A stretch of 56,462 nt of DNA from a virus. Location of the stretch: IMG/VR virus record IMGVR_UViG_3300021139_000017; one strand, written 5' to 3'. Position 1 is the stretch's first letter. Each line of letters starts with the position of its first letter. Below the pieces are notes generated by a model. That model saw nothing but the letters and a program-made list of their open reading frames with translations. It was not told the DNA's origin and made no database searches. Position numbers and translations under genes: made by a program. Positions 791 to 26,345 of the stretch are shown piece by piece.

Positions 791-793
791 TTT

Positions 794-3473: not shown

Positions 3474-3670
3474 ATTTGACTTTTGATTTTACCGGGTTAA
3501 AACCAAAATATCCCACCGCGCATAAATCGTCGGTGGATGGTCGTTCAATTTGCTGTGCTGTATGCAAACTGTTTTTTAACAGTTATGGTATTCCACAGCG
3601 CGTTTGGAACCGAATGAGTGAATGTCAGCGCGCGGATTATTCGAAAAATGAAACGCGAAACCACGTTTAG
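3470..3670 (+). CDS. hypothetical 66-aa protein
   Basis: ATGA overlap with the DndC-like stop. No recognisable motif. Overlaps the next gene by 23 nt. Confidence 0.35.
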   Translation: MNLTFDFTGLKPKYPTAHKSSVDGRSICCAVCKLFFNSYGIPQRVWNRMSECQRADYSKNETRNHV

Positions 3671-4121: not shown

Positions 4122-4269
4122 CAGTTATTGGCTGGCGAAGACTGGCGAAGCGGCGAAGATTGCAACTGCCCTGGCGCATTCTGAATCGGTCATGCGTAAA
4201 AATTATATGGCGCTCGTTACCCAGGCAGACGCAGAAAAGTTCTGGCTTTTGAAACCAAGCCTCATTTGA
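4075..4269 (+). pseudogene. C-terminal remnant of a tyrosine recombinase (integrase)
   Basis: The frame reads QDCTRHSASSYWLAKTGEAAKIATALAHSESVMRKNYMALVTQADAEKFWLLKP. This matches the conserved integrase C-terminus (HDLRHSFASywLa ... LGHS.s.m...hY ... A..fW), including the catalytic-Tyr position. The upstream ~300 aa of an integrase are absent, and the 5' end overlaps the DUF1643 gene. Confidence 0.5.
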
Positions 4270-4603
4270 CGATTTCCGCTTTCACTTCGCAAAGGCCGAG
4301 GGGCAACCCATTGAGTTTTGAAAATGCGGCCGGCGACAGATCAATGCGGCCGGCGAATCTCCGAGCAGGCCGGTCCGTGACGCGAACAATAACCCAGCAT
4401 CCATTGTGGGAATCAGTTATTCGCAACAATGTTCCCAACGGCCATTGCCACGTTGCACAGGTCATCGCAGACGGATCGAAATGGGATCCGGAAGACGCCA
4501 ACCTTCCTTCGTCGTCGAAACGCTCCCATGAAGCAATATCGCCGCACGCGCGCCAAAGCACGAATAACGCGGCAATGATCAAAATTGCGAGTTGTCGCCT
4601 CAT
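4262..4603 (-). CDS. RlpA-like double-psi beta-barrel lytic transglycosylase with an N-terminal signal/anchor (candidate endolysin)
   Basis: ATG at 4603. N-terminal hydrophobic segment AILIIAALFVLW. ASW...GRLASSG..FDPSAMTCA...PLGTLLRITDSHNGCWVIVRVTDRPARRFAGRIDLSPAAFSKL matches the RlpA/DPBB pattern. Confidence 0.65.
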   Translation of the reverse strand: MRRQLAILIIAALFVLWRACGDIASWERFDDEGRLASSGSHFDPSAMTCATWQWPLGTLLRITDSHNGCWVIVRVTDRPARRFAGRIDLSPAAFSKLNGLPLGLCEVKAEIVK

Positions 4604-4605
4604 GT

Positions 4606-5457
4606 TTATTGGGCCGATGCTGATTGTGCGGCAGAAGTCATTACTGCCAAAGAATTGGCATTGGCATCATCAATTTCGAAGGCAGGTATCACAGGATTGA
4701 TTCGGGTATGAGCGGCGCCCATTTCTTCAGCGGCAAGCCAAACCATTGAGTTTTCTGGGCCGCTATAGGCAATGTCGAACGTGACGGCCGCAACGGTGGC
4801 AATTGGTGGGTTGGTGAGGTCGGTTTTTGCCCAAGCCCACGGCGTATTTCCATTGCCGAGCGATAGCATTGTGTGGCTTTCATCGGGAGCCAGACGCCGC
4901 GCCTCTGATAATGCCAGCATGTCCGGCGCATTGAATCCGGTAGATCCACCATCCCAAAAGACATTATTTCCGATTTTGTGTGCTGGAAAATAGCTTTGTG
5001 CCGCACTGGATGCCATCATCACATCCACCATCAGCATTCCGCTATCAGGACCAATCACAATCTCGTCGCCGTCGAAACGACTTTCTCCATAACTCTGAAA
5101 ATAGGTTCTTCGGCCAGTTGTCATTTCATCGGCTGTGGCTATGAACTTGGTTTTGCAATCTGCCAGGGTTGCATTTCCAACCACCGACAGCAGCGCGTTA
5201 CGCAGATTGTCCGATGAATACTTTGCGGACGCAAAAATCCGGTTAATTGGAATCCACCATGCGCCTGAAAAAATGGTCGGGGCTGACTTGGTGAAGAATG
5301 ACGAAACATCCTTGATCCCGAGCGCGTAGCATCCCCCGACAATGCTGCCAACAGAAGTCCCGGCAATCAGGTCAAAATCCGGATGTCCTTTGGCGTTTAG
5401 AATCGCGCAATGCATAATCCCGCGAGTTCCACCGCCTTGGAGAGCCAGAATTTTCAT
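4606..5457 (-). CDS. patatin-like phospholipase
   Basis: Oxyanion motif LQGGGTRG, nucleophile elbow GTSVG and the catalytic Asp motif WDGG are all present in the expected order. No signal peptide. The stop is 2 nt from the RlpA-like start. Confidence 0.85.
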   Translation of the reverse strand: MKILALQGGGTRGIMHCAILNAKGHPDFDLIAGTSVGSIVGGCYALGIKDVSSFFTKSAPTIFSGAWWIPINRIFASAKYSSDNLRNALLSVVGNATLADCKTKFIATADEMTTGRRTYFQSYGESRFDGDEIVIGPDSGMLMVDVMMASSAAQSYFPAHKIGNNVFWDGGSTGFNAPDMLALSEARRLAPDESHTMLSLGNGNTPWAWAKTDLTNPPIATVAAVTFDIAYSGPENSMVWLAAEEMGAAHTRINPVIPAFEIDDANANSLAVMTSAAQSASAQ

Positions 5458-5664
5458 TTAGCAGACTTCTTGGCTGTTCGCCAGTTTCTTGCAGTTGCCC
5501 ACGATGGCCACGTCGCCATCGGCGAGCTTGATGTCTGCGCCGTCGCCGGGCGGCAGGAAGGCGACGATGCGCGAGATGTGCGTGTCACCGTCTGCCGAGC
5601 AGTAAAGCACCGTGTCGCCGATTTGCGCGACAGTCGAGCCGTTGGAATAGAATTTTTCACCCAT
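5458..5664 (-). CDS. hypothetical 68-aa protein, abutting the patatin gene
   Basis: ATG at 5664. Its stop codon sits directly against the patatin start codon. Composition looks beta-rich. Confidence 0.5.
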   Translation of the reverse strand: MGEKFYSNGSTVAQIGDTVLYCSADGDTHISRIVAFLPPGDGADIKLADGDVAIVGNCKKLANSQEVC

Positions 5665-5668
5665 AAAG

Positions 5669-6118
5669 TTATTGGGTTGCTTTTAATCCAGATGCTGTTC
5701 CGGCCAATATTGCTTCCAATGCAGCGGTCAATTGCGCATTTTGGTTCAGCGCGCCTTTGACCGTTCCCTGTCCGGCATACTGACTAAATTTCGTTGTAAT
5801 GGCATCCACCAGCACGGCGTAAAGAGCCTTGTCGCCTTGCACGTTTGCGGCCACCAGCGCATCCTTCACAGCGGCAGGATCCACAGTTCCGGTGGAAATG
5901 AGTTGACCAAGCACGGTGTCCACCAGCGCAATGTCAGTCTTGGCCGCAGGGTTCTGGGTGACATATTGCTCGGTGGCGACTTCCGCAGCCAATCGCAGGT
6001 TGCTTGGGTCGGTGATGGTTTGAACGATGACGTTGCCGTTGCTCGGCGCGGTTGAGCATCCGGTGAAAGCCAGTGCCGCAACGGCGGCAAGGCAGAGAGT
6101 CCATTTGTTGAATTTCAT
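5669..6118 (-). CDS. lipoprotein
   Basis: N-terminus MKFNKWTLCLAAVAALAFTGCS is a signal peptide with an FTGC lipobox. Confidence 0.7.
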   Translation of the reverse strand: MKFNKWTLCLAAVAALAFTGCSTAPSNGNVIVQTITDPSNLRLAAEVATEQYVTQNPAAKTDIALVDTVLGQLISTGTVDPAAVKDALVAANVQGDKALYAVLVDAITTKFSQYAGQGTVKGALNQNAQLTAALEAILAGTASGLKATQ

Positions 6119-6142
6119 ATTTGCGTTTTTTTTGGTTGATGA

Positions 6143-6625
6143 TTAAAAGCTGATTGTGGCTTGCACCGCTCCGAGCAACCCAGCTTTGTCAGTTGCACAG
6201 AATTTGTCTCCGGCCTCCGTCTCGATCCCCATATTTTTGGTAAGCCGAAATTCCAATGTGGCGTCAACGACGGTGTAATTGGAGCCATCGGTAAAATCTT
6301 TTCCCGCGCCCAATCTGCCACCAATAGCAAAACGCCAGAAAGGCCAGCGCACGTTGTAATCAACCTGGCTGTAATCAAACAAAAGCGCGTTGAGATGTGA
6401 AAAGCTGGTCACGCCGGCGCGGATGCCGCCGCCGTAGTGGATGGATTGCCAATATGTCCCGCCTAGTTCCGTTCCCGTGGACATGCGCGTAACAGGATGC
6501 GCGAATGAAAATGCCGGACCTGCCATAATTTCAATCTCGCTGGCAGCATAAAAATTCGTGCAAGATTGAGCTTTAGCACCGATGCAAATTACAAAAAACG
6601 CGATGAGTGTATAAAATATTTTCAT
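6143..6625 (-). CDS. small outer-membrane beta-barrel protein (OmpX/Ail/Lom size class)
   Basis: ATG at 6625 gives MKIFYTLIAFFVICIGAKAQ (signal peptide). The mature part is about 140 aa with alternating hydrophobic strands, Gly/aromatic girdles and a C-terminal ...ATISF (terminal Phe, BAM-type signal). Confidence 0.6.
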   Translation of the reverse strand: MKIFYTLIAFFVICIGAKAQSCTNFYAASEIEIMAGPAFSFAHPVTRMSTGTELGGTYWQSIHYGGGIRAGVTSFSHLNALLFDYSQVDYNVRWPFWRFAIGGRLGAGKDFTDGSNYTVVDATLEFRLTKNMGIETEAGDKFCATDKAGLLGAVQATISF

Positions 6626-6735
6626 AAAGTTAGGCTTTTCGACCTGCGCCTCACGCTCAACTCCTGATTCAATTCCATGAAATGGGTTGAGCCAGCCGGG
6701 TGAATTGGCAGTGTCTAACGCAGGACGAAAATTTT

Positions 6736-7053
6736 TCATGCTTTTGGTAAATTGCTTGGCGGCATTTCTGCCAAAATGCCTTTTATGTCATCCGCCGATA
6801 GCGAACCATTTTTTTGAATCGTCGTCATGGAGTTGTCCAGAAACGCAATAATTGTAGTGGCAATCGCCAAGACAATATTGGCGTGCATCTTTTGAATTTG
6901 CAGCGGTGTCATGGCGGAAACATCGTCAAAACCTTCAACGGATGCCATCCAGGCGTTGTGTGCCACGACGTAGAGGTAAATGGTCAGCCGCACGGTGGCT
7001 ATCCGCCAATAAAGCGGCAGCGATTCAAAGAAGTTTTTAAGCGGGACTGGCAT
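6736..7053 (-). CDS. two-TM membrane protein (holin candidate)
   Basis: Hydrophobic segments WRIATVRLTIYLYVVAHNAWMA and ANIVLAIATTIIAFL, with a charged C-tail. Lies between the fibre genes and the lysis enzymes. Confidence 0.45.
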   Translation of the reverse strand: MPVPLKNFFESLPLYWRIATVRLTIYLYVVAHNAWMASVEGFDDVSAMTPLQIQKMHANIVLAIATTIIAFLDNSMTTIQKNGSLSADDIKGILAEMPPSNLPKA

Positions 7054-7054
7054 A

Positions 7055-7378
7055 TTAATGAGAATGAATAAAGTAATGAATGGTTTCGACGGCGGCCGCA
7101 GTCAACGTGGCCGTGCCTACGATGATTGTTCCAAGCGTCGTAACTGCTTTAGCCATGCCCATGCCATTGTTTTTAACGTCTTCCAGCGCCCGCACCCTAG
7201 GCTCTAATGTGCCGCACGATCCCGGTGATGAGCATGGAGGATTTGCGTTAATATAAGCCTCTATTCTTGCAAACCGTTGAAGCAGTTCCTTGGTATCGCT
7301 ATGGATTTCTACCAAAGCAGGTTCGGCAACGCCGCGCCACGCTTTTAAGTTTGCCACCTCTTGCTGCATATCTTGCAT
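7055..7378 (-). CDS. coiled-coil protein with a C-terminal TM anchor (holin/antiholin/spanin-like candidate)
   Basis: The N-terminal part looks helical/coiled-coil. The C-terminus AVTTLGTIIVGTATLTAAAV is a single TM segment. Confidence 0.45.
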   Translation of the reverse strand: MQDMQQEVANLKAWRGVAEPALVEIHSDTKELLQRFARIEAYINANPPCSSPGSCGTLEPRVRALEDVKNNGMGMAKAVTTLGTIIVGTATLTAAAVETIHYFIHSH

Positions 7379-7382
7379 AGAT

Positions 7383-7739
7383 TTATTTCTGATTTACACC
7401 TAGCCCCGTCGGTGCAGGAAATTGAATTATTGGCATCATAAATTGGTTTGTATCAAACAAAATTGGGGTCGCCATGCTCGAGGCTTCTGCCCCATTCCCC
7501 CAAGTTGAGCAGATCGTCAACCAACTCCCATTAGGCACCTGCTGGATTGGGATGTTTGTTGTCCCGGTATTGCACGAACCAAACCAGTGATTTGTGGCTG
7601 TGTTGTTTGTTGGACACCAATAAGCAGCATAGCCATTAACTCCATTCGTCGCATCAGACTGCGATGGAACGAATCCAAGCGAAAAGCTTTGCCCCATTGT
7701 TTGAGCAGCGATTAGGATAAATAACAAAATGAATTTCAT
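7383..7739 (-). CDS. small secreted Cys-containing protein
   Basis: ATG at 7739 overlaps the upstream stop (ATGA). MKFILLFILIAAQTMGQS is a signal peptide. The mature part has 3 Cys and is N/T/G rich. Confidence 0.55.
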   Translation of the reverse strand: MKFILLFILIAAQTMGQSFSLGFVPSQSDATNGVNGYAAYWCPTNNTATNHWFGSCNTGTTNIPIQQVPNGSWLTICSTWGNGAEASSMATPILFDTNQFMMPIIQFPAPTGLGVNQK

Positions 7740-9400
7740 TGAATTTGAAGTAGCGCATTGGTTTTCCAAGGCGTAACCGTGAAAAGCCAATTATTCGAGC
7801 AAACAATTTTAACGACCCCAGGAACAGGTATAAAGTTGCTAGCGTTGTAGTTTGTCGCCAGTAAAGTTGTGGTGTTAGTTAATCCGCCACCATTTCCAAA
7901 GAATTGTTCACCGGCAGGTAATTGAAAGCCGTTTGTGGTTAAGGTTGCCACCAGATTGGTGGGAGTGGCCGCTGTGGCAATGAACCATTGCTCGCCGCTG
8001 TTGGTGTTGAAAATGTAGTTGCGCACCCAGCCTGGCGAGCTACCGATCGGCGTGTAAATGTAGCCCACGTCATTCGCATAACCGCCGGCATTGAAGTTGG
8101 TGTAGTTGGCCGAATTGTAATAAAATCCGAAATAATTCTGCACATCCGACGTGCTACCGGGCTGATTCAAATACCAACCCGTCTCGGACGCGCCGTTGGT
8201 GTTCAGGTTTTGAATGACCACCTGGACATAGGTGTTGGTATTCCCAAGAACCGTGAGCGCATTCTGAAAATTGTTGCTGATGGTGTTGAGAGCAATATTA
8301 GTCAGTCCGGCTCCGTTGCCGATGATTATACTGCCAGTGGCAATGACGAGATTTGAATTTATGGTGACGTTGTTCGTCGTAATATTGATTGATCCGAGCG
8401 GAGAATAGCCAAGATTGACGATATCTTGATTCTGGTCAGCTTGGAAAATGGAATTACCGCGCACGTCATTAACCAGCGTCAAACCCGTCCCGCTGAACTC
8501 AAGCGACGGTGGCTGTGCATTAATTCCAAGGATTGCGCCAAAATAGCCCGACACCGTGGAGTGATGGACATACATGACGTTTGTGTCTGCCAGAAAGAAA
8601 TTAGCCTCTGGAAAAATTACGGGTGTGCTATTGGACTGAACCAACCCCAGTGTTGTCGAGTTGGTGAAATAAACATTCGCCGAATAAAGCGCGGTTTGCG
8701 AATACCCTAAATAATCCTGCTCTGCCAGTTGCGTGTAATTCGTCCCAGCGTGCGTCAGCCAGTAGTTACCGCCAATCCAGTTTGTAAATTTGATGTTTTC
8801 ACCAACAAAAAAACCTGCCCCGGCATCATAGACCTGAACCCCAATTTGGTTTGTTATCGTGTAATAAATGTTTGTGACATAAGAGTCTTGGATCGGACCT
8901 GTTGTGGCCGTTATAAAAGAATATGGCGAAGAGACACTTGTTATTAAATTATTGTAGTAAAAAACCCCATTTAAGCCCGTTCCGGCCCAATTCATTGCGG
9001 TGATGCCATTCACCGTATCAGGCAAAGTGCCTGAAGGAATAAAGTAATTGGTTGTGCTGACGCTGTATGGCGTTGCCACAGTTACGGCAAAATTAATTCC
9101 AAGATGCTGATTGGTAAAAATCACCACGCCATTCGTCAATGCTGGATAATTTGCAACATTAAATGTTTTCGAATCACCTGGATACCAAACCCCTCCAACG
9201 ACCACGGATCCTGCCGCCGGCGCCACACTTACCGAGCGCACTAACGCCGGAAAACCTCCGGACAACGATCCGAAATAAAATGCCACATTGTTGCTTTGTG
9301 CGGATGAAATGACCGCGCCGGCCAAGAAGATGGCAAACGCGGAAGTGAATAAGAAGCACGCCTTAAATCGGCGTGATAATGGAAAGCGTCTGGCAGTCAT
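7736..9400 (-). CDS. tail-fibre-like protein (554 aa) with an RR-containing signal-peptide-like N-terminus
   Basis: N-terminus MTARRFPLSRRFKACFLFTSAFAIFLAGAVISSAQS. N/T/S/G-rich beta-type composition. GNGAGLTNI and GNGGGLTN motifs resemble the G-x-G-x-GLTN repeats of phage tail fibres. Confidence 0.6.
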   Translation of the reverse strand: MTARRFPLSRRFKACFLFTSAFAIFLAGAVISSAQSNNVAFYFGSLSGGFPALVRSVSVAPAAGSVVVGGVWYPGDSKTFNVANYPALTNGVVIFTNQHLGINFAVTVATPYSVSTTNYFIPSGTLPDTVNGITAMNWAGTGLNGVFYYNNLITSVSSPYSFITATTGPIQDSYVTNIYYTITNQIGVQVYDAGAGFFVGENIKFTNWIGGNYWLTHAGTNYTQLAEQDYLGYSQTALYSANVYFTNSTTLGLVQSNSTPVIFPEANFFLADTNVMYVHHSTVSGYFGAILGINAQPPSLEFSGTGLTLVNDVRGNSIFQADQNQDIVNLGYSPLGSINITTNNVTINSNLVIATGSIIIGNGAGLTNIALNTISNNFQNALTVLGNTNTYVQVVIQNLNTNGASETGWYLNQPGSTSDVQNYFGFYYNSANYTNFNAGGYANDVGYIYTPIGSSPGWVRNYIFNTNSGEQWFIATAATPTNLVATLTTNGFQLPAGEQFFGNGGGLTNTTTLLATNYNASNFIPVPGVVKIVCSNNWLFTVTPWKTNALLQIQ

Positions 9401-9426
9401 GCTATTAAACTTAAAAAGTCAATCCG

Positions 9427-10638
9427 TCACGGCCCCATCTGTTTCGTGTAAGTCGTAGTCCCGTTCGTCGAGCCGGTCAGGTAGAAAAATCCATTGCTGC
9501 ACCACATGCGGCCCCCCTTCTGATTTCCGAGGTCGGAGATTGTCGGCGTGTTGGTCTGCACCCAAAGGCTGAAAGCGTTGCCGATGGTCAATGGCGCGTA
9601 AAGGTTGGCCGTCGGGATGGCGGCTGTGCGCGGCCAAAAGAACATCTCCGGTTGCGTCGGGTAAATCGGAATGGTGAACGTGACTACACCGGCATTGGTT
9701 GAAATCGTGTAATTCGTGTAGGTCGTCCAGCCGTTCAACAACGACAGGTTTGTGCTGGATGAAATCACAAACGCTGACGGCAAATTTGTCTGCGGAATGG
9801 CCAAGAGCAAATTCGTCCCGGTGCCGTCAAGGCTCAACGAGTTGTAGAGCGTCACCGTCGGAAAGCCGATGTCGAAAGCCGTCCCGCCGAAGTGGCTGAC
9901 GATCTGGTGAAAATAACCGTTTGTGTCCGTGTTGTTTTGCCATTGGCCGGCAACCATGTTCTGCTCGGTCATGTCAACATAGTTTTTCGTCGCGGCATCC
10001 TGTGGCACAATCGGGTCACTGAACTGCGTGAACTGCCCATAGAATCCGTTTGTGCGGTTAATATATTCAGGGTGATCGACCGTCTGAATCACGACCGAGC
10101 CAAGCCCGCCGCCAGCGCCGACGACGGCCAGCGAATAAGTGTTTGTGACATTGACGTAATTCGTCAGCACGAACCACCCGGACGTTCCGTTTGTCGAAGC
10201 CCACACCTGCTCAAACACGTTTGTTGGAAAAGCCACGCCGCCGCCCCCAGCTTGGCCCGGCGAGAAGCTTAATTTCGTCCAACCGTTCGTGAACCGGCCC
10301 ACATAATTCGACGTGCCGAACGCCCAATAGTTTGACGAGAAGATTGTGAACTGCTGACTCGACAAAACGCTGTTGGATAGCGTCAGCACGGAATTGGTTG
10401 ACCCCCCGCCGCTGGATTGCGCCAGATTTGGTGACAGTGGATTCAACATCACCGCCCCGTTGGTATAAATGAAATCCACGGGCGAGAACCACATGTCAAT
10501 CGGATGGCCGTTTGCGTTCAGCACGCCGGGCGGCGTCACCGTCAGCACGGCGGACGGATAGTTCGTCGTGACGTTGAACGATTGCGAGTGCGCCAGCGCC
10601 AGCCAGCCGCACACAATGAGGATGAGGATGTTTTTCAT
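9427..10638 (-). CDS. tail fibre protein (403 aa) with a signal-peptide-like N-terminus
   Basis: ATG at 10638 gives MKNILILIVCGWLALAHSQS. The internal motif DPIVPQDAATKNYVD is the classic tail-fibre (P..DAATK.YVD) motif. Confidence 0.65.
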   Translation of the reverse strand: MKNILILIVCGWLALAHSQSFNVTTNYPSAVLTVTPPGVLNANGHPIDMWFSPVDFIYTNGAVMLNPLSPNLAQSSGGGSTNSVLTLSNSVLSSQQFTIFSSNYWAFGTSNYVGRFTNGWTKLSFSPGQAGGGGVAFPTNVFEQVWASTNGTSGWFVLTNYVNVTNTYSLAVVGAGGGLGSVVIQTVDHPEYINRTNGFYGQFTQFSDPIVPQDAATKNYVDMTEQNMVAGQWQNNTDTNGYFHQIVSHFGGTAFDIGFPTVTLYNSLSLDGTGTNLLLAIPQTNLPSAFVISSSTNLSLLNGWTTYTNYTISTNAGVVTFTIPIYPTQPEMFFWPRTAAIPTANLYAPLTIGNAFSLWVQTNTPTISDLGNQKGGRMWCSNGFFYLTGSTNGTTTYTKQMGP

Positions 10639-10645
10639 AATAGTG

Positions 10646-12979
10646 TCAGTAAAAGGTGACGGAGCCGTAAAACGAGCGGGTCTTGCACGTTTCGCATTCG
10701 CCCTGAATCTCGGTCGAAATCCATTGCGTTGTGTCAGACCAGCCAAATGAAGTGATACAGCGGTTGTTGATGATTTCCGACACGCTGCCATCGGTGTGAA
10801 TTTCCAGACGATTCGGCGGCAACGCGGGCTTTTGGCCGATGGTTGGCGGGATGGTTGGCGGCGGCACAGTGATTTGAATTGGATTGTCATTGAACATCCG
10901 CCGCGCTTGATCCACGGCCTGCCACATGCCGTAACCGTTGGCCAAAGTTTTGCAGACACCATTCAGCGTGAAGGAAATGTAGGGAGGACAATTCGCGGGC
11001 GGCGGCACAGGCGGCGGCGGCGAGTTTGTGCCAGGCGTCGGCGTGTAAGGCGGCGGATTCGTTGCCGGAGCCTCGATGACGTAGGTGAACTGGTAGGAGC
11101 CGGGCGGCGTCCCGTAAATGGCCCCGTTCGGCCCGATATACCACCAACTCGTGTTGGTCGTGGTGAACATCACTTGCGAGTAAGGATTTCCAATTAAACC
11201 GTAGCCAATCCAGTTAGCATTGTTGGAAATTGCAAACCAAGTGTTAGATGGCGGAATCATCGTAACATTGGTTACATAGGGTGAAGCTCCAACACTGCCC
11301 GTCAATGTGATGGTTTCATTCGTCAATGGTAGAATGGTGACATTGTTGGTCAGTGCGTAATAAAACCACCACGCATTCGAGTTGTAGAGTGCCCAGCAAG
11401 TGATGTAGGAATACTGGTTCGTCAACGTGCTGTTGGTGTAAATCAGATAGGCCGTGTCAATCGGCAGAAAAACCGATGAGCGATTGCCGGTCGGATTGGT
11501 GACGATGATGGACGAAACCTGCCAGTTGTAATTCGTGGACATGGCCGCGAGCTTCAACACTTCCCCGCACGCGTTGGTGAATGAACCCAGCCCCCATTGC
11601 GGCGACGGATAAAATGGCCCGCTGTTGTTCGGACACGTCGGCCCACCCATGACGAAGCCGCAAGCGTTGGTGTAAATGAGCGAAAGAAAGTTTGTGCCAT
11701 ACTGGTTGACGACAGGCGGAATGTTCGTGTCGAGGATGTAAGGGCCGGCAATGTTTGTGCAGCCCGGCAGATAAATCGCGTTGCTGTAATTGATGAAGCC
11801 GCACGCATTCGTGTAGGCATTCGCGGCAATGTTCGTGTTCAAATAATACGGCGGTGCCATGTTGGTGCAGCCGGGATTGAACACCTTGTTGGACACGCTC
11901 ACGAAACCACACGCATTCGTGTAGAGGTTGTTCGTCCAAAGCAGATACGGCGGCAGACCGTTCGTGCAAGCCGGATTCGTGCTGGTGAGGATGAAGCCGC
12001 ACGCATTGGTGAACAACCCCGTGCCAAGATTCGTCGCCGCGAAATACGGTGGCCCGGCGTTCGTGCAAATCGTCGGGTAAGGATTCGTGAACGTCGTCAC
12101 CGTCATGTTGCTCGACAGAACGAATCCGCAAGCGTTCGTGTAGAGATTATTCGTCCAGAACCAAAACGGCCCGGCAGAGTTCGTGCAAGTTACCGGGAAA
12201 AAATTCGTGTAGCCCGCAATGCCGTTGGTCAACATCGCCATGCCGTTCGCGTTGGTCACAACACCCGCGCCGATGCCGGGCGCGGCGAAATACGGCCCCG
12301 CCGTGTTCGTGCTCGATGCCGGATTCAGAATCAGCGCGGACTGCCCGCAATCGTTCGTGAAATGAAAACCGTCCACCGAATACCAGCCATCCGGGCAGTT
12401 GGTCGGCGCGGGAAAGCTGATGCCGCCAAGACTGGTGATCGGATAAAACGGATTCGTGCTGGTGAGCGTGAACGTGTTGGAGATCGTCAAGTTGCTGCCG
12501 ACGCCGTTCGTGATGGTCAGATAATTCGTGCCCGCACTTCCACCCGGCCCGCCCACCGTCGCGGCGATGTTTGTCATCAGCGTCAGCAACGTCGAGTTCG
12601 TCGGTGCGTTGGCGCTGACGATTGAGCCGATGGCCGCAGAACCAGCCGAGGAAAATGTGTTCGCTGCCGACAGCCCAATGACGACGCCATTGAGCCAGAA
12701 GTTTGTCAGGCCGGACGGCGGCGGGTTGGTGGCAATCCAGTTGTTGAGCCAAGCCCAGTTGCCATTAATGTCCAACTGCGTTTGGTGCAACGATTCGCCC
12801 ACCGTAACCGAATTGGTCTTGGTGTTCGTCGCCGCGCCGTTGGTGACTACGCCGGGAATGGTGATGCTCGACGTGGTGACATTCGTTGTGGTGTAGATCG
12901 TCGTCGTGTCGAGGTTGGTGAGTTGGGCGCGAGCCGTCATCACCAGCATCAAGAGTGTCAGGATGGATTTTGTTTTCAT
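10646..12979 (-). CDS. fibre-like protein (777 aa) with a signal peptide and about 8 Cys-pair repeats
   Basis: ATG at 12979, 4 nt after the upstream stop, gives MKTKSILTLLMLVMTARAQ. Internal repeats end in (Y/F)TNACGF. A Pro-rich stretch PPPYTPTPGTNSPPPPVPPP lies near the C-terminus. The upstream 115 codons of the track ORF overlap the previous gene and are rejected. Confidence 0.65.
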   Translation of the reverse strand: MKTKSILTLLMLVMTARAQLTNLDTTTIYTTTNVTTSSITIPGVVTNGAATNTKTNSVTVGESLHQTQLDINGNWAWLNNWIATNPPPSGLTNFWLNGVVIGLSAANTFSSAGSAAIGSIVSANAPTNSTLLTLMTNIAATVGGPGGSAGTNYLTITNGVGSNLTISNTFTLTSTNPFYPITSLGGISFPAPTNCPDGWYSVDGFHFTNDCGQSALILNPASSTNTAGPYFAAPGIGAGVVTNANGMAMLTNGIAGYTNFFPVTCTNSAGPFWFWTNNLYTNACGFVLSSNMTVTTFTNPYPTICTNAGPPYFAATNLGTGLFTNACGFILTSTNPACTNGLPPYLLWTNNLYTNACGFVSVSNKVFNPGCTNMAPPYYLNTNIAANAYTNACGFINYSNAIYLPGCTNIAGPYILDTNIPPVVNQYGTNFLSLIYTNACGFVMGGPTCPNNSGPFYPSPQWGLGSFTNACGEVLKLAAMSTNYNWQVSSIIVTNPTGNRSSVFLPIDTAYLIYTNSTLTNQYSYITCWALYNSNAWWFYYALTNNVTILPLTNETITLTGSVGASPYVTNVTMIPPSNTWFAISNNANWIGYGLIGNPYSQVMFTTTNTSWWYIGPNGAIYGTPPGSYQFTYVIEAPATNPPPYTPTPGTNSPPPPVPPPANCPPYISFTLNGVCKTLANGYGMWQAVDQARRMFNDNPIQITVPPPTIPPTIGQKPALPPNRLEIHTDGSVSEIINNRCITSFGWSDTTQWISTEIQGECETCKTRSFYGSVTFY

Positions 12980-12983: not shown

Positions 12984-15695
12984 TTAGGAGCCGTCGGGAA
13001 CGCCGAGCAGCAAGAGCGAGTTTTCCAGATCGTTGAAGATTTCAACGGACATCGGGAATTGAGTTTTGGAAACCACCATTTGCCCCGGATACGACAGGCT
13101 GTTGAATGGATAGTTGGCCAGATGGCGGCTGAAAAAGTTGACGAACGCGCCGCAGTATTCAAACGCCGTCGGACTGTAACCGCCGTTGCCGAAGCCGTAT
13201 TGTTGCGCGTGGAAAAGCGGTTGCCAGTTCGCCAGCACTTCCAGAATGATTTGCGTGTTTGCCTGATAAACGATTTCCGTCCCGGCCAACACCGGCCAGA
13301 ACACCGAGACGTTTCCCGTGTCACGGCCCGCTGCCGGAATGGTAATGGTGAACGGACTCACGCCATCGGCCTTGAAGAATGGTTCAAACACCAGCGAGCC
13401 GTCCCACGCCAGCCGGTTCTGCCCCACGGTGACGACGATGGCCGCGCCGCTGGTTGGCGTTACCATGATTCCGTCCGTGTTCGCCACGGGCAGACGCCGG
13501 GCGCACAGATTGAAAATGCAGTAGCCGTTTTGCGGGATTGGCTTCTGCCCCCCGGTTAGTGCCGTGTAGCCGATGTCCACCCGCGCATTCCCCGTCAGGC
13601 AATTACTGAAAGGCTCATTCGCCAGCGGGAAGTATTGCCGCGCCGGAGCCGCCGAAAAATCCATCTCGACGACGATGGCAAACGACACCGCCACGCCGTT
13701 CGTGTTCTGGATCGTGAATCGGAAATCACCAAGCCCATTGATGATGTTTTGCAGATAGTTCGCGCCGCCCGCGTTCGGAATGACCACGGAGTTACCCGCC
13801 GCAATCACGAAATCGTAAGTCGCCGGGTTCGCCGGATTCGGCCACCCAGCTTTCGTGCTGACAAAGATTTTCAGATTGGATGCCAGCGCGGTGCCCGCGC
13901 TTAACTGGCCATTAACCCAGCCGAGTCCTGGCGTTCCGGGTTGAACCAACGTCAGCTTGATCCCCACGCAAGTAGATGCGGCCACAAAACCGAAGTCCGA
14001 AAACGAATAGTTGTTGGATGCCCCGGCCAAAAGCGTCTGGCTGGCACTGGTGTTGAGGCGCGACTGATAGTTTGAACCGAGATTGAACGGGACAAAATCC
14101 GTATCCCGCAACACCGCCCACGTCGCCGCCTGTGTCTGGCACGACTGATTGATGATGTTGAAATAATGCTCGCCCGAATCGTAAGCCACGCCGCCGATGG
14201 TGAGGTAGTATTCGCCACGGTCGAACAGCGTCATTTGCCGCATCGAGCTTGCTTGAATCGGAAAGAACGCCGGAACTGGATTGTCGAGATAGTCCGGCAA
14301 CAGATTGAACAGACCCGGCGAGCCTGCCACACCGCCGCCGCTGCTACCGTAGCCGCTGACGTATGGCGGAATGTCGTTGTCGAGAAAAACATTCAGCCCC
14401 GGCGTCGGCAACGTCATCGCCACCCAGACGCCTTTGACGGTCGCGTCCGACAACTGCCAGAATGAGCCGTGCGCCGTGCCGTTGAGCGTGAACGCCGCGC
14501 CGACACCCGGCCCCGTGATGGCGTAGCCGTTTGAGCCGGGATGCACCACGTTGACAGGTTTGAACGCCGCCGTGCTGCCAAAGCTCAATGACGAGGTGTA
14601 GGCGGCATAAACTCCCACCAATGGATAGGGATTTGAATTGAGCGTGTAACCCGCCGCTGGATTGGCAGTCAGCGTGATTGTGCCGCTGCCCGGCGCAATG
14701 ACCGTCGTGAAGCTCGCCACCAAAAGAAAGTTGCCCGGTGAAACGGTCTGCGTCGTCCAGACTGGCGCGACTCCGATTGCCGACGGAGTGAACGCCGCCG
14801 CCGCGGGCAATGCCGCGCCCGTGAAGCCCCACGACACTGTAACCGTCCAAGTGCCTTCCGTGTCGGCAACGTAATTCAACGTCGCCGTCTGCGCCACCCC
14901 AGCCGTTGCGCCGGTCAAAAGTTGGCCGCTGGCATTTCTGCCGGCTGAAACCGAGAACCCTGGCTTGGCATCCGCCGCCGCGTAATAAAACTGCACGTTC
15001 TTGAAAACCGTCATGCCGCCGTAATCGCCGAGCAACTGCCCTTGGACGGTCTGCGGGAATGTCACCGGATCGTTGACGCCGACACACCAAGGCCCGCTCA
15101 AAACCGCCGCTGGCGTCAAATACAGCCCGGCATTGATTGGCACACCGGCATTCGCCCCAAAGAGCAGCGTCCAGTAATCGCCCCGGATGCGGTTCAATTC
15201 CTGCCGCCAGTTTTTCAGGTTGAGTTGCACCGAAGCCGTCACCGGCAGGTAAGGCGTCCCGTGCAGAATCGCCGACGTGCAACCGTAGGACTGGATAAAT
15301 TCGCCGCCCGGATTGGCGTCCGCGTTGTTGTAATAAAACGAATTGCCGGATGATGTCGGAAACGTAATGCCCGAACCCGCCGCCGCTTCGTTCGCTCCCG
15401 CCGTCCAGTTGTAAAACCGCTGTGCGAGAACGGCCAGCGTGTAATTGCCGCTGCCGTCATACGTCGCACCGGGCGGAACGAGATTGATGCTCAACGTGCC
15501 GTTGCCGAAGTTATAGGCCGGTTGCGGATAAACCAGCGTCGTCTGGTTGGCGTCAACGAAGTAGTCGAACGACTGCGAAATCGGCCAAGTTCCGGCCCAG
15601 ATAGCCGCATCCACAAGCGGTTTCAAAACCTGATTGGCCAAGGCCGCGAGTCCGGCAAAGTCGTTTTGCGAGATGATGGCTCCGCGCGTTGGCAT
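12984..15695 (-). CDS. large baseplate/central-fibre (Tal-position) structural protein, 903 aa
   Basis: Long ORF in the tail module downstream of the tape measure and the Dit-position gene. No signal peptide. No specific motif recognised. Confidence 0.55.
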   Translation of the reverse strand: MPTRGAIISQNDFAGLAALANQVLKPLVDAAIWAGTWPISQSFDYFVDANQTTLVYPQPAYNFGNGTLSINLVPPGATYDGSGNYTLAVLAQRFYNWTAGANEAAAGSGITFPTSSGNSFYYNNADANPGGEFIQSYGCTSAILHGTPYLPVTASVQLNLKNWRQELNRIRGDYWTLLFGANAGVPINAGLYLTPAAVLSGPWCVGVNDPVTFPQTVQGQLLGDYGGMTVFKNVQFYYAAADAKPGFSVSAGRNASGQLLTGATAGVAQTATLNYVADTEGTWTVTVSWGFTGAALPAAAAFTPSAIGVAPVWTTQTVSPGNFLLVASFTTVIAPGSGTITLTANPAAGYTLNSNPYPLVGVYAAYTSSLSFGSTAAFKPVNVVHPGSNGYAITGPGVGAAFTLNGTAHGSFWQLSDATVKGVWVAMTLPTPGLNVFLDNDIPPYVSGYGSSGGGVAGSPGLFNLLPDYLDNPVPAFFPIQASSMRQMTLFDRGEYYLTIGGVAYDSGEHYFNIINQSCQTQAATWAVLRDTDFVPFNLGSNYQSRLNTSASQTLLAGASNNYSFSDFGFVAASTCVGIKLTLVQPGTPGLGWVNGQLSAGTALASNLKIFVSTKAGWPNPANPATYDFVIAAGNSVVIPNAGGANYLQNIINGLGDFRFTIQNTNGVAVSFAIVVEMDFSAAPARQYFPLANEPFSNCLTGNARVDIGYTALTGGQKPIPQNGYCIFNLCARRLPVANTDGIMVTPTSGAAIVVTVGQNRLAWDGSLVFEPFFKADGVSPFTITIPAAGRDTGNVSVFWPVLAGTEIVYQANTQIILEVLANWQPLFHAQQYGFGNGGYSPTAFEYCGAFVNFFSRHLANYPFNSLSYPGQMVVSKTQFPMSVEIFNDLENSLLLLGVPDGS

Positions 15696-16944: not shown

Positions 16945-18636
16945 TTAAGGTCGGTTATCGCGTGTGTTGTGAACTGGGAATTGTTGTGGCCGCGTTCCAA
17001 GCTGCGGTTTGCGTTCCCCTGGTGGATGATTTGATGGCGGATGCACTGGCGTTATTTTATGGTCAATGGACCGAAGCGTGGCCAGTTGCTGCAATTCAAT
17101 TGGCGCGGTAGCTGCATATGCCCCAATGCGCTGATTGCTGTTTAGGGAATAACTGCGATTTTCACCTTTATCACCTTTTTTTTCTGCCAAATCACGCGCC
17201 TTTTCTTCTGCAAGTTTTGCCGCAGACTCTTCAGCCGAATCGGTGTTTTTAGCTGCATTCGATTTTACGATGTTTGGAATCTCCAATCCGATTTGAGCAG
17301 CATCACCGGCTGCTTTAGCAGCATCTTTATTTAACTGCTCTTTGGTTTTACGGGTTTGATCATTGATTTCAACCTTATCAGCATAGGCGTTACGCTGGGC
17401 TATCATCTTTTGAGCAAGGTCTTGCCCCCCTTCTTCCGTTTGGCTGATCAGTTGCTGGCTAGCGCCGCCCAAATCCATGGCAGCTTGTTTCTTAAATTCC
17501 TCCCAAACACCGCCTCCCTTCAAAAACTTTTCAGCGGCTTCGGCATTCTGATTCAATTGGCCAAGATTTTTCTGATCCTCTTCCTTGGTATTAACCTTGA
17601 TACTGTTCGCCTGCTTCAATTTATTTTGAGACTCAATTTCCAAATTGGTCTTTTCGGTTAGTTTGTTTGCGAGTTCAGATTTTTGCTGGTCTTTTTCAAG
17701 CTGCAACTCTTGGCCGGCGTATTTTGCATTGATGGCTTCTTTTTCCTCCGGAGTTTTAGCCGCAACGAGTTCGGTGGCTTTTTTAATTTCCAGCATTTTT
17801 TTCAAATGGTCGTAATGCTCCTTGATTGTGTCCAATTCTCGTTTCGCCGCCGCTGCTGCCGAATTGTAAGCGGCAGTTGTCTTTTGAACCTCATCAGTGA
17901 TTTCCTTTTGAGCATTGCGCGCGTCATTGAGATGGCGCTTTAGAAGCGGGATGTAATCATCTTTTAGATCGGACGACCCGCTGAATGTCAGCGAATCAAG
18001 CAAGCTTTTAACACCCCACACACGCTCATAAAATACACCCGCCGCCAATGCAATTACTCCAAAGATTGCCGTGACGCCAAGCATGGATAGCCCTGCGCCC
18101 CTCGTTGACGCCGCCAATGCTTCCTGAGCAACGGCGTCCGCTTCTGCGGCGGATGCTTTACGACCCAAGGCTGCTGCGGTAGCATTTGCTGCCATTGCTT
18201 CCGCAGCATCGGCATCGGCTGCAACCAGCGTAGATTCGATTTCAAAGCCTTCAGCTTCGGCTTCGGCCGCTGTCGCTTCTGCCTTGCGCATGGCTGCCGT
18301 CGCCGCCATGTTCGCATTTAAAGCCGCTTCCGCGTAGCCATCCGCCAGCATTCGCGCTGCTGACGCTCCTTGCTGTGCTGCTCGAGATGCGCTGCTTATG
18401 TATTGAATCAAGAGTGACAACGAACCAAGGATTCGCCCAACGCCGCGCCCCATCATAATCTCGCGTCCGATAACGGTTGTTTCTCGAATCATTCCTGTCA
18501 TGCCAACCGTATGCCCACTGGCAGCGCTGGCAGACATTCGGCGCGCAGCGATCGTGGTCATGGTCTGCATCCGCGCAAGTTCCGCTTGAAACTGCGTCGA
18601 GTTTGCCCCAAAAATTACTGTGACAGCGCTGGCCAT
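16945..18636 (-). CDS. tape measure protein (563 aa)
   Basis: An Ala-rich helical N-terminal third, hydrophobic segments (GLSMLGVTAIFGVIALAAGVF), then a long K/E/Q/A coiled-coil. Lies downstream of the tube and chaperone-position genes. At about 0.15 nm per residue this predicts a tail of about 85 nm. Confidence 0.7.
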   Translation of the reverse strand: MASAVTVIFGANSTQFQAELARMQTMTTIAARRMSASAASGHTVGMTGMIRETTVIGREIMMGRGVGRILGSLSLLIQYISSASRAAQQGASAARMLADGYAEAALNANMAATAAMRKAEATAAEAEAEGFEIESTLVAADADAAEAMAANATAAALGRKASAAEADAVAQEALAASTRGAGLSMLGVTAIFGVIALAAGVFYERVWGVKSLLDSLTFSGSSDLKDDYIPLLKRHLNDARNAQKEITDEVQKTTAAYNSAAAAAKRELDTIKEHYDHLKKMLEIKKATELVAAKTPEEKEAINAKYAGQELQLEKDQQKSELANKLTEKTNLEIESQNKLKQANSIKVNTKEEDQKNLGQLNQNAEAAEKFLKGGGVWEEFKKQAAMDLGGASQQLISQTEEGGQDLAQKMIAQRNAYADKVEINDQTRKTKEQLNKDAAKAAGDAAQIGLEIPNIVKSNAAKNTDSAEESAAKLAEEKARDLAEKKGDKGENRSYSLNSNQRIGAYAATAPIELQQLATLRSIDHKITPVHPPSNHPPGERKPQLGTRPQQFPVHNTRDNRP

Positions 18637-22831: not shown

Positions 22832-22980
22832 ACCAGCGTTTTTCAAATTCTGCTAGAATCACCTTGTTTTCATTGGCGAAAATAATTTTATTTTTTTGTT
22901 GTATGGCGCAAGCGGTTGCGTTATATTCTTACCAGTTCAAACGAACTAACCGAAACAGCCCGGCAAAATTGGCTGAAAAA

Positions 22981-26316: not shown

Positions 26317-26345
26317 AACCGACGAAACTTTAACCACTGCTTTTT

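What the first reader, a model, noticed from the sequence alone, without database searches (positions are those of the whole stretch)
7383..12979. Four consecutive fibre-position proteins begin with cleavable-looking Sec (one RR-type) signal peptides
The 777-aa protein opens MKTKSILTLLMLVMTARAQ. The 403-aa protein opens MKNILILIVCGWLALAHSQS. The 554-aa protein opens MTARRFPLSRRFKACFLFTSAFAIFLAGAVISSAQS. The 118-aa protein opens MKFILLFILIAAQTMGQS. Each opening has a basic n-region, a hydrophobic h-region and an A-x-A/S-Q-type c-region. The proteins sit exactly where receptor-binding fibres belong, after the tape-measure, Dit- and Tal-position genes. They also carry fibre motifs (DAATKNYVD; GxGxGLTN). 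Tailed-phage virions assemble in the cytoplasm, so exported fibres are unexpected. Several explanations are possible. The N-termini may be uncleaved and serve as assembly or membrane-targeting elements. The proteins may be secreted cargo, such as adhesins, decoys or depolymerase-like factors, rather than virion parts. The fibres may be matured or attached outside the cytoplasm. The Cys-pair repeats in the 777-aa protein favour an oxidising (extracytoplasmic) location. Two further signal-peptide proteins of similar composition sit at other module borders (20030-20461 and 29649-30296).
Basis: partly seen in the sequence, partly recalled or inferred. Interest (0 to 1): 0.78.

Follow-up and report, generated by a model that had tools for sequence, protein, structure and literature searches.

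The report
Phage tail fibres carrying export signals
In a complete 56-kb freshwater phage genome, probably of a Verrucomicrobia host, all four fibre-position proteins and two other structural-module proteins start with conserved secretion signals. If these proteins are virion parts, the outer parts of the virus are made outside the cytoplasm and added only at lysis, which has not been described for tailed phages.

Summary
Genes 10646-12979, 9427-10638, 7736-9400 and 7383-7739 (minus strand) form one tight late operon between the tail-tip gene and the lysis genes. Each opens with an n-h-c leader and a small-x-small|Gln site.

- **Conservation:** every homologue with a complete N-terminus also has a leader, although the leader sequences themselves diverge.
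- **Context:** the homologues sit in syntenic phage and prophage loci, two of them in Verrucomicrobiota genomes.
- **Link to classical fibres:** family members carry the N-terminal motif of classical baseplate/tail-fibre connector proteins. In cultured phages this motif starts 3-6 codons after the Met. Here it follows a 27-32-residue leader, and the predicted cleavage restores the same register (hhalign 98.3%; the 777-aa protein itself 93.8%).
- **Module exchange:** the 403-aa protein shares 92% identity over its distal 323 residues with a protein of a different phage type that has another N-terminus.
- **Disulfides:** cysteines in the 777-aa repeats are kept or lost strictly in pairs.

Best reading: these are Sec-exported fibre proteins that mature in the periplasm and join particles at lysis. 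This is unproven. An exported non-virion role is the main rival. The "RR-type" (Tat) reading is not supported. I found no published precedent.

The parts
10646..12979 (-). g777, 777-aa fibre-type protein. It has a signal peptide, an N-terminal baseplate/fibre-connector-type motif, six Cys-pair repeats and a conserved C-terminal domain.
12926..12979 (-). g777 signal peptide (residues 1-18, MKTKSILTLLMLVMTARA|Q)
   Evidence: Leaders are present in 11 of 11 complete homologues.
12737..12802 (-). g777 residues 60-81 (VGESLHQTQLDINGNWAWLNNW), a diverged copy of the GD-x-L...K-I-N-x-N-F motif found at the N-terminus of classical phage baseplate/tail-fibre connectors
   Evidence: hhalign of A7 against A4: probability 93.8%, E 1.8e-7. 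A7 against A6: 96.6%.
11558..12187 (-). Six tandem units of about 35 aa, each with two cysteines (C-T-N-x-x-x-P-Y/F ... T-N-A-C-G-F). Likely one disulfide per unit.
   Evidence: Cys are kept or lost in pairs across homologues: 26 both, 9 neither, 0 single.
9427..10638 (-). g403, 403-aa fibre-type protein. Signal peptide at 10585-10638. DAATKNYVD at 9973-9999. The distal 323 residues are 92% identical to P0022 of a different phage type.
7736..9400 (-). g554, 554-aa fibre-type protein. Long basic leader at 9299-9400. GNGAGLTN at 8297-8320 and GNGGGLTN at 7874-7897.
7383..7739 (-). g118, a small leader-bearing protein coupled to g554 by a 4-nt overlap, in the position of a fibre chaperone or tip protein. 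Signal peptide at 7692-7739.
   Evidence: A homologue with its own leader ends the four-gene leader-bearing cassette of L001.
12984..15695 (-). 903-aa tail-tip (Tal-position) protein directly upstream. It has no signal peptide.
16945..18636 (-). Tape-measure-position protein (563 aa), no signal peptide
   Evidence: weak PHROG tape-measure hit, E 0.002
20030..20461 (-). g143, a small leader-bearing protein inside the tail module, just upstream of the tube-position gene. Signal peptide at 20402-20461.
   Evidence: A protein of similar size sits at the same position in the P0005 contig. A non-homologous leader-bearing protein sits at the same position in L009.
29649..30296 (-). g215, a leader-bearing protein directly after the capsid gene. 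Signal peptide at 30228-30296.
   Evidence: Seven homologues (38-53% identity) all have leaders, and the one contig examined has the same portal-capsid-g215 order.
4262..7378 (-). Lysis-side genes that follow the fibres: 107-aa and 105-aa proteins with hydrophobic segments, a 160-aa leader-bearing protein (6143-6625), a 149-aa lipoprotein (5669-6118), a patatin-like phospholipase (4606-5457), and an RlpA/DPBB protein with an N-terminal membrane segment (4262-4603).

Best explanation
The four genes encode receptor-binding or fibre-type proteins of a phage lineage associated with Verrucomicrobiota. Each carries a genuine cleavable Sec-type signal peptide.

Shown:
- The leaders have n-h-c architecture and are conserved as a property, not as a sequence, across three unrelated families.
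- The genes sit in a tight late operon after the tail-tip gene.
- g777 has the N-terminal motif of classical baseplate/fibre connectors.
- In related family members the predicted cleavage recreates the N-terminal register that classical phages have with no leader.
- g403 shows exchange of its distal module between phage types.
- The g777 repeats show paired-cysteine covariation.

Inferred mechanism:
- The proteins are made late and sent through SecYEG.
- Signal peptidase I cuts them, exposing Gln (possibly cyclised to pyroglutamate).
- They fold, trimerise and form disulfides in the periplasm. g118 may be a co-exported chaperone or tip protein.
- They dock through their N-terminal adaptor onto fibre-less particles built in the cytoplasm, once the lysis system merges the compartments.
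- g215 (after the capsid gene) and g143 (before the tube gene) would be exterior decoration proteins added the same way.

All these classes (side fibres, decoration proteins) are known from T4 and lambda work to attach to finished particles in vitro. That statement is from my own knowledge, not a tool result.
For: - Leaders verified and beyond chance.
- Leaders conserved in homologues.
- Alignment A5 shows a 27-32-residue N-terminal extension relative to seven classical phage proteins annotated as baseplate wedge / tail-fibre connector / tail pin. In those proteins the motif starts 3-6 codons after the Met.
- hhalign of mature leader-family N-termini against classical N-termini: 98.3%, E 1.6e-14, columns 3-38 on 3-38. 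g777-type against classical: 93.8%.
- g403 residues 81-403 are 92% identical to P0022, which has a different N-terminal part. P0022 sits in a different phage type: TerL, then a 614-aa and a 359-aa protein with no family hit, then the major head protein, then three leader-bearing proteins.
- Leader-bearing proteins directly follow the last large tail protein in every tail-module locus examined: window, P0005 contig, L009, L012/L026, L013, L022, L027.
- Spacing is tight, and promoter- and terminator-like sites are no more frequent than in shuffled sequence.
- The genome scan found the g403 family only next to phage tail genes.
- Cys pairs co-vary: 26 both, 9 neither, 0 single.
- The putative endolysin (DPBB) also has an N-terminal membrane or export segment, so Sec use late in infection is plausible.
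Against: - There is no direct evidence that these proteins are in virions.
- Apart from the short N-terminal motif, there is no significant match to any fibre family or fold. Pfam, PHROGs and PDB sequence searches found none. AF2 pLDDT was 66 for g403 and 49 for g777, and Foldseek hits were not meaningful.
- g403 and g554 themselves lack the classical N-terminal motif.
- The 903-aa tip protein could be the only receptor-binding protein the particle needs.
- Fibres and particles would have only a short time to meet at lysis.
- Disulfides also occur in phage Milano virions, where the study gives no indication of export.
- In L001 a homologous leader-bearing cassette is not next to recognisable tail genes.
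- No trained signal-peptide predictor was run.
Confidence: 0.45

Rival explanations
1. The proteins are exported but are not virion parts. They would be fibre-derived secreted factors that work in the periplasm or on cell debris. Possible roles are masking or decoying the receptor so progeny are not lost on lysed cells (as T5 Llp does), envelope or capsule remodelling that helps release, or adhesins.
For: - The leaders are real and conserved.
- Tailed-phage particles assemble in the cytoplasm (established knowledge).
- The tip protein g903 has no leader and could be the true receptor-binding protein.
- The L001 cassette stands apart from recognisable tail genes.
- A shared distal module between two phages would also suit a receptor-binding decoy.
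Against: - A conserved N-terminal virion-docking-type motif in the classical register is hard to explain for a non-virion protein, unless it is kept only for trimerisation.
- Phage-type-specific N-terminal parts joined to exchangeable distal parts are the hallmark of virion receptor-binding proteins.
- The position is fixed and core-like in divergent phages.
- The four genes take about 10% of the genome.
- No enzyme domain was detected.
Confidence: 0.3
2. These are morons or lysogenic-conversion genes: independently expressed surface proteins that benefit a lysogen, like lambda lom/bor or cor next to fibre genes.
For: - Exported proteins next to fibre genes have precedent (lom, bor, cor; my own knowledge).
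- Related elements are prophages with an integrase (L009).
- g143 and g215 sit at module borders.
Against: - Gaps are 4-26 nt with one overlap, and promoter- and terminator-like sites are no more frequent than in shuffles.
- No integrase was found in the window.
- Synteny is conserved rather than sporadic.
- The proteins are large, fibre-like and mosaic.
- G+C content is not distinct from neighbouring late genes.
Confidence: 0.08
3. The hydrophobic N-termini are not exported. They would act as uncleaved membrane-targeting or assembly segments, or be removed by a phage protease, and the fibres would join particles in the cytoplasm.
For: - This is the conventional assembly topology.
- Authors of a Porphyromonas phage study assumed that predicted signal peptides on capsid proteins are removed by the prohead protease (PMC10367356).
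Against: - The h-regions are strongly hydrophobic and short, follow basic n-regions, and end in small-x-small sites. This holds in dozens of divergent homologues.
- Classical homologues of the N-terminal motif need no such segment.
- Gln follows the predicted site in 7 of 7 leader-bearing proteins of the window, which fits processing at exactly that bond.
- Paired cysteines argue for an oxidising location.
Confidence: 0.1
4. Gene-calling artefact: the true starts lie downstream, so no leaders are translated.
For: Public pipelines start g777 at Met11 and do not call g118.
Against: - The leaders are conserved in homologues at 30-50% identity.
- g554 has no alternative start.
- The next Met in g403 is at residue 49, and no Met precedes residue ~135 in g554.
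Confidence: 0.02

Closest known systems
Classical phage baseplate / tail-fibre connector proteins (annotated 'baseplate wedge tail fiber protein connector', 'baseplate wedge subunit and tail pin'; e.g. Pseudomonas phage PMBT14 gp16, Synechococcus phages S-SCSM2R and S-H38, phage C48C1)
   Same: They share the N-terminal motif (I/V)N-x-G...N-D-G-T-G-D-x-L-R...K-I-N-x-N-F, with profile-profile probability 98.3% for family members and 93.8% for g777. They also share a modular layout in which the N-terminal part differs between proteins that share a distal part.
   Different: In the classical proteins the motif starts 3-6 residues after the initiator Met with no leader. Here it is preceded by a 27-32-residue signal peptide. 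The rest of the proteins shows no detectable similarity.
Lambda Lom/Bor, Cor, T5 Llp: Sec-exported phage proteins encoded beside fibre or receptor-binding genes
   Same: They are phage-encoded, carry signal peptides and sit next to tail-fibre genes. Llp masks the receptor. (My own knowledge.)
   Different: Those are small outer-membrane proteins or lipoproteins, often expressed independently, and are not fibre-like. Here the proteins are 118-777 aa, have no lipobox, are mosaic and fibre-type, lie inside the late operon, and sit at conserved positions.
Sec-dependent phage lysis proteins (signal-anchor-release endolysins such as P1 Lyz, secreted endolysin Lys44 of fOg44, spanins)
   Same: They are late phage proteins exported by the host Sec system before lysis (PMC8878798). 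This phage's DPBB protein also has such an N-terminus.
   Different: Their function is lysis, not structure or host recognition.
Filamentous phage coat proteins pIII/pVIII
   Same: They are virion proteins, including the receptor-binding pIII, that are made with Sec signal peptides and assembled outside the cytoplasm. (My own knowledge.)
   Different: Those phages are non-tailed, extrude through the envelope and do not lyse the cell.
Streptococcus mitis phage SM1 PblA/PblB, and the archaeal virus ATV
   Same: PblA and PblB are tail-fibre proteins that also act outside the virion on the cell surface. ATV completes its tails outside the cell. (My own knowledge.)
   Different: PblA and PblB have no signal peptide and reach the surface through phage lysis. 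ATV is an archaeal, non-Caudoviricetes virus.
Bacteroidetes Q-rule (Gln after the signal-peptidase-I site, cyclised to pyroglutamate; PMC5837995)
   Same: Gln is at the predicted +1 position in 7 of 7 leader-bearing proteins of the window and in most homologues. Porphyromonas phages also encode unknown proteins that obey the rule (PMC10367356).
   Different: The associated genomes here are Verrucomicrobiota. The rule has been described only for Bacteroidetes, and the paper does not mention Verrucomicrobia.

Membership tests
Sec / signal-peptidase-I signal peptide | Basic n-region, hydrophobic h-region of about 7-15 residues, c-region with small residues at -3 and -1 | tested here: met
   All four proteins, plus g143, g215 and g160, meet it. 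The g554 leader has a long n-region with five basic residues and an h-region of about 20 residues.
Sec / signal-peptidase-I signal peptide | The feature is conserved across homologues while the leader sequence diverges | tested here: met
   11 of 11, 25 of 29 (the rest are truncated), 2 of 2 and 7 of 7
Sec / signal-peptidase-I signal peptide | Positive call by a trained predictor (SignalP 6, DeepTMHMM) | not testable with these tools
   No such predictor was available. Only a rule-based scan with an interior-Met control (0 of 100) was run.
Sec / signal-peptidase-I signal peptide | Export and cleavage shown experimentally | not testable with these tools
   Needs PhoA/Bla fusions or N-terminal proteomics
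Tat (twin-arginine) signal peptide, for g554 | S/T-R-R-x-F-L-K consensus at the n/h border, conserved in orthologues | tested here: not met
   ARRFPL and SRRFKA do not fit the consensus. Homologues P0002 and P0003 have KK leaders.
Lipoprotein (signal peptidase II) | Lipobox L-x-x-C at the cleavage site | tested here: not met
   None of the four has one. The neighbouring g149 does (LAFTGC).
Phage tail fibre / baseplate-fibre connector | N-terminal virion-attachment-type motif | tested here: met
   Met for g777 (93.8%) and for family members P0037-P0041, P0038, P0047 and the L013 protein (98.3%). Not found in g403 or g554.
Phage tail fibre / baseplate-fibre connector | Position after the tail-tip genes and a mosaic N-terminal-adaptor / distal-module architecture | tested here: met
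   Synteny in seven tail-module loci. g403 and P0022 are 92% identical distally with unrelated N-terminal parts.
Phage tail fibre / baseplate-fibre connector | Recognisable fibre family or fold (Pfam, PHROG, structure) | tested here: inconclusive
   No Pfam, PHROG or PDB hits. AF2 confidence was moderate to low and Foldseek hits were not meaningful. Only sub-significant tblastn hits (E about 0.7) of the DAATKNYVD region to Klebsiella phage tail fibres.
Phage tail fibre / baseplate-fibre connector | Presence in the virion | not testable with these tools
   Needs virion proteomics or cryo-EM
Moron | Own promoter and terminator, sporadic distribution | tested here: not met
   Gaps of 4-26 nt and one overlap. 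Promoter- and terminator-like counts equal the shuffled expectation. Positions are conserved in relatives.
Type IX secretion cargo | C-terminal sorting domain (Por_Secre_tail type) | tested here: not met
   No Pfam hit in any of the proteins

The most novel reading that the evidence does not exclude
In this Verrucomicrobia-associated phage lineage the virion is finished outside the cytoplasm. Every add-on exterior part is Sec-exported, cleaved and oxidatively folded in the periplasm, and attaches to cytoplasm-built particles only when lysis merges the compartments. These parts are the side fibres or receptor-binding proteins, a fibre chaperone or tip protein, and head and tail decoration proteins. 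This would be a two-compartment assembly pathway not described for tailed phages.
Probability: 0.4. Interest if true: 0.9.

Novelty: new variant of a known kind. Interest (0 to 1): 0.77.

Why it matters
Tailed-phage morphogenesis is taken to be wholly cytoplasmic. Annotation pipelines and host-range studies therefore assume that receptor-binding proteins have no signal peptides. One DGR study even used the absence of signal peptides as support for phage origin (PMC6199706).

A whole lineage of phages whose fibre-type proteins are exported has one of two meanings:
- It reveals a new final assembly step: attachment of fibres and decoration proteins in the periplasm or after lysis, with access to disulfide formation and N-terminal pyroglutamate.
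- Or it reveals a new class of fibre-derived secreted factors made late in infection.

Both can be tested directly, and both bear on practical work:
- how phages of the poorly studied PVC bacteria are annotated;
- how receptor-binding proteins are recognised in metagenomes;
- how such proteins would have to be produced in the laboratory (export may be needed for folding).

The case also shows that standard gene callers partly hide the feature, through a shortened start for g777 and a missed g118.

Tried and rejected
- **Family and structure searches:** Pfam and PHROGs on the four proteins and on ten homologues gave nothing useful. PDB sequence search gave nothing.
- **Structure prediction:** AF2 of g403 gave pLDDT 66. 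It showed two beta-sandwich-like regions and a helix at the DAATKNYVD motif. Foldseek against PDB and BFVD gave only low-TM matches. AF2 of g777 gave pLDDT 49, too poor to search.
- **Close relatives:** single-protein scans of IMG/VR found none. Megablast against cultured phages found nothing.
- **N-glycosylation idea** (Asn/Thr-rich, periplasmic): N-x-S/T sequons are not enriched over composition, z from -1.6 to +0.9. Rejected.
- **Tat export of g554:** rejected.
- **Type IX sorting domain and lipobox:** absent.
- **Outer-membrane beta-signal for g777:** the C-terminal F-Y is conserved in the family, but the hydrophobic residues are not in the alternating pattern of such a signal (my reading of the sequences). 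Rejected.
- **Independent promoters or terminators:** counts are not above the shuffled expectation.
- **Bacteroidota host** (suggested by Gln at +1): not supported. The only genomic relatives are in Verrucomicrobiota MAGs.
- **Homology of g143 and g215 to the leader-bearing proteins at analogous positions in L009 and L024:** none beyond the leaders themselves.
- **Literature:** five keyword searches and seven papers gave no report of Sec signal peptides on tailed-phage fibres.

Full report
**1. What the window is**

The 56,462-bp window closes on itself: its two ends share 54 bp inside a 12-bp tandem array. It is therefore a complete phage genome. It comes from freshwater bog-lake metagenomes, for example JGI 3300000203 TB18AUG2009E and 3300021117.

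The late genes run on the minus strand in this order:
- a gpA-type large terminase (36132-38282);
- a lambda-family portal (33466-35394);
- an 888-aa protein whose C-terminal third is a Phage_capsid domain (30330-32996);
- after an inserted plus-strand block, the tail genes.

The tail genes include a tape-measure-position gene (16945-18636, weak PHROG hit, E 0.002). They continue with 288-aa, 145-aa and 903-aa proteins that have no family hit.

The four genes of the finding follow. After them come small proteins with hydrophobic segments, a leader-bearing protein, a lipoprotein, a patatin-like phospholipase and an RlpA/DPBB protein with an N-terminal membrane segment. No integrase was found. 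Cultured phages are only distantly related: the portal is about 23-25% identical at best.

**2.

The four N-termini are exactly as quoted. Each ATG is the first after the upstream stop. The gaps are 4, 7 and 26 nt, then a 4-nt overlap. g554 has no alternative start.

A rule-based n-h-c plus -3/-1 scan passes 8 of 80 ORF calls at credible starts. These are the four genes, g143, g215, g160 and the lipoprotein g149. None of 100 interior-Met pseudo-N-termini pass.

All seven non-lipoprotein leaders end with a small residue followed by Gln. The motifs DAATKNYVD and GNG(A/G)GLTN are present. So are six repeats of about 35 aa with two Cys each, 20 Cys in total.

The "RR-type" label is not supported. 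The arginines do not fit the Tat consensus, and the g554 homologues have ordinary KK leaders.

**3. The leaders are a family trait, not an accident of this genome**

- **g777:** the full HMMER scan of 1.8 billion representatives found 18 relatives. All 11 with a complete N-terminus begin with a leader, 9 of them followed by Gln.
- **g403:** 29 relatives were found. 25 have leaders, and the other four start inside the conserved core.
- **g554:** two relatives, both with leaders.
- **g215:** seven relatives at 38-53% identity, all with leaders. In the one contig examined the gene sits directly after the capsid gene.
- **g118:** a homologue (E 3e-8) with its own leader ends a four-gene, all-leader cassette in L001 that begins with a g554 homologue.

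The leader sequences differ freely while keeping the n-h-c form. That is what selection for export would produce.

**4. Context and host**

Leader-bearing proteins directly follow the last large tail protein in every tail-module locus I could read:
- the syntenic P0005 contig;
- prophage L009, which has an integrase and lies in MAG GCA_964532525.1;
- L012/L026, L013, L022 and L027.

The single scan of 185,579 species genomes found the g403 family only in two Verrucomicrobiota MAGs, one Verrucomicrobiia and one subdivision 3. Both hits lie next to tail genes. The host is therefore probably a verrucomicrobium. I hold this with moderate confidence, because identity to those loci is only 32-36%.

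L009 and L012 also carry small leader-bearing proteins just upstream of the tube or tape-measure genes, the position g143 occupies in the window. The g143 and L009 proteins are not homologous.

**5. The link to real virion fibres**

Several family members have, right after the predicted cleavage site, the sequence (I/V)N-x-G...(N-D)-G-T-G-D-x-L-(R)...A-F-x-K-(I/V)-N-x-N-F. These members are P0037-P0041, P0038, P0047 and the L013 protein.

tblastn of this stretch against 50,697 cultured-phage records hits proteins annotated as baseplate wedge tail-fibre connector, baseplate wedge subunit and tail pin, baseplate structural protein or tail protein. In all seven that I opened, the motif starts 3-6 codons after the annotated start and has no leader.

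| Comparison | hhalign probability | E-value |
|---|---|---|
| Mature leader-family N-termini (A6) vs classical N-termini (A4), columns 3-38 on 3-38 | 98.3% | 1.6e-14 |
| g777-type N-termini (A7) vs classical (A4) | 93.8% | 1.8e-7 |
| g777-type (A7) vs contiguous-motif family members (A6) | 96.6% | 5.8e-10 |

Two conclusions follow. First, the joint alignment shows the new family as the classical N-terminus plus a 27-32-residue extension. Second, the predicted cleavage gives back an N-terminus of classical length.

The g777-type N-terminus keeps the opening I-T-N-I strand. It then has an insert of about 35 residues before the GD-x-L...K-I-N-x-N-F helix (residues 60-81).

One caveat applies. 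The classical set was chosen through similarity to P0038, so the similarity score is partly circular. The register and the absence of a leader in the classical proteins are independent observations.

**6. Module exchange**

g403 residues 81-403 are 92% identical to P0022, and the last ~150 residues are identical. The N-terminal parts after the leaders are unrelated.

P0022 lies in L024/L025, a different phage type. That locus has a large terminase, 614-aa and 359-aa proteins with no family hit, a major head protein of another PHROG, and then leader-bearing proteins of 195, 129 and 441 aa.

A phage-specific proximal part joined to an exchangeable distal part is the classic signature of virion receptor-binding proteins. 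The g403 family shows at least four different N-terminal types on one conserved core.

**7. Disulfides**

In the three g777 repeats that can be aligned across homologues, the two cysteines are both present 26 times, both absent 9 times, and never present singly. This argues for one disulfide per repeat and so for an oxidising location. It is supportive only. Phage Milano virions have extensive disulfide networks, and that study gives no indication of export.

**8. Mechanism**

I consider it well supported (about 0.85) that these are functional Sec leaders and that the proteins leave the cytoplasm.

What happens next is inference. The explanation I favour (0.45) is that the proteins are true fibres that fold in the periplasm and dock onto fibre-less particles when lysis merges the compartments. 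On this reading g118 is a co-exported chaperone or tip protein, and g215 and g143 are exterior decoration proteins added the same way.

All these classes are known to attach to finished particles in vitro in T4 and lambda (my own knowledge). With micromolar fibre concentrations inside a lysing cell, docking within a fraction of a second is physically reasonable (my estimate).

The main rival (0.30) is an exported non-virion role such as receptor masking, a decoy, envelope remodelling or an adhesin. The remaining rivals are:
- morons (0.08), weakened by tight operon packing, conserved positions and the lack of an integrase;
- uncleaved or non-exported assembly segments (0.10), weakened by the comparison with classical N-termini;
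- wrong start codons (0.02).

**9. Comparison with known systems and novelty**

Known Sec substrates of tailed phages are lysis proteins, and small outer-membrane or lipoprotein morons such as Lom, Bor, Cor and Llp. Only filamentous phages make virion proteins with signal peptides.

The literature I could search holds no report of signal peptides on tailed-phage fibres. One study uses their absence as a mark of phage origin. A Porphyromonas phage study noted unknown phage proteins obeying the Bacteroidetes Q-rule and dismissed predicted leaders on capsid proteins.

I class the finding as a new variant of a known kind: fibre-type proteins with export signals. If the proteins prove to be virion parts, the assembly route would be new.

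**10. Limits**

- There is no isolate and no proteomics, and no trained signal-peptide predictor was run.
- No confident structure was obtained, and host assignment is indirect.
- g403 and g554 are called fibre-type from position, short motifs and mosaicism only.

Noticed in passing
window 1-120 and 56330-56462: The two ends of the window overlap by 54 bp inside an array of 12-bp tandem units (CCAAGTCAGCGA-like). The contig is therefore a circularly closed genome. The array could be an iteron-like element or could code for a repetitive peptide (ADLV repeats on the minus strand).
   Followed up: partly
window 22864-28207 (+ strand): A plus-strand block splits the head and tail modules. It holds a DUF932 protein, an 805-aa DnaN sliding-clamp fusion and a WGR-domain protein. 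A DnaN gene lies on the opposite strand about 3 kb beyond the head module in relative L028 as well.
   Followed up: partly
window 4262-7378 (- strand): The lysis side is unusual. It has two small proteins with hydrophobic segments, a 160-aa leader-bearing protein, a lipoprotein, a patatin-like phospholipase (4606-5457) and an RlpA/DPBB lytic-transglycosylase-like protein with an N-terminal membrane segment (4262-4603). A phospholipase in a lysis cassette may help break the outer membrane.
   Followed up: no
window: all seven non-lipoprotein leaders (e.g. 12926-12979, 10585-10638, 9299-9400, 7692-7739, 20402-20461, 30228-30296, 6569-6625): Gln follows the predicted cleavage site in 7 of 7 proteins and in most homologues (10/12, 14 of about 25, 7/8). 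This is the 'Q-rule' described only for Bacteroidetes, yet the genomic relatives are in Verrucomicrobiota. The few host-encoded leader-bearing proteins flanking L012 and L013 lack Gln at +1.
   Followed up: partly
window 30330-32996: The capsid gene encodes 888 aa, with the Phage_capsid domain only at residues 612-880. The long N-terminal part may be a fused protease or scaffold. Relatives have 892-917 aa.
   Followed up: no
window 209-4121 (+ strand): A block of DUF6745, DUF5131, a PAPS-reductase-domain protein and DUF1643 sits next to the lysis genes. It may be a DNA-modification or metabolic module.
   Followed up: no
L024/L025 8385-14532: This is a different phage type from the same lakes. 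It has three leader-bearing proteins (195, 129 and 441 aa) directly after its major head protein and a fourth (487 aa) further on. Exported structural-module proteins are therefore not limited to the window's phage group.
   Followed up: partly
L012/L026 1366-3424: Three consecutive leader-bearing proteins sit directly upstream of the tape-measure-position gene in a tail-gene cluster. The cluster lies next to a 1263-aa ORF that I read as SMC-like from its N-terminus (not tested), in a Verrucomicrobiia MAG. No integrase is seen in the fetched stretch. It could be a remnant or a tailocin/GTA-like element.
   Followed up: no
window 7383-7739 and 12950-12979; loci L003-L008: Public gene calls miss g118 (they call a 38-aa ORF on the other strand) and start g777 at Met11 (767 aa). 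Standard pipelines would therefore under-report these signal peptides.
   Followed up: yes
window: g777, g403, g554, g118, g143, g215: All leader-bearing late proteins have extremely few charged residues (K, R, D and E at 0-2% each) and are rich in Asn, Thr and Gly. N-x-S/T sequons are not enriched.
   Followed up: partly
window 51421-51510: A tRNA-Arg (CCG) gene lies among the early genes.
   Followed up: no
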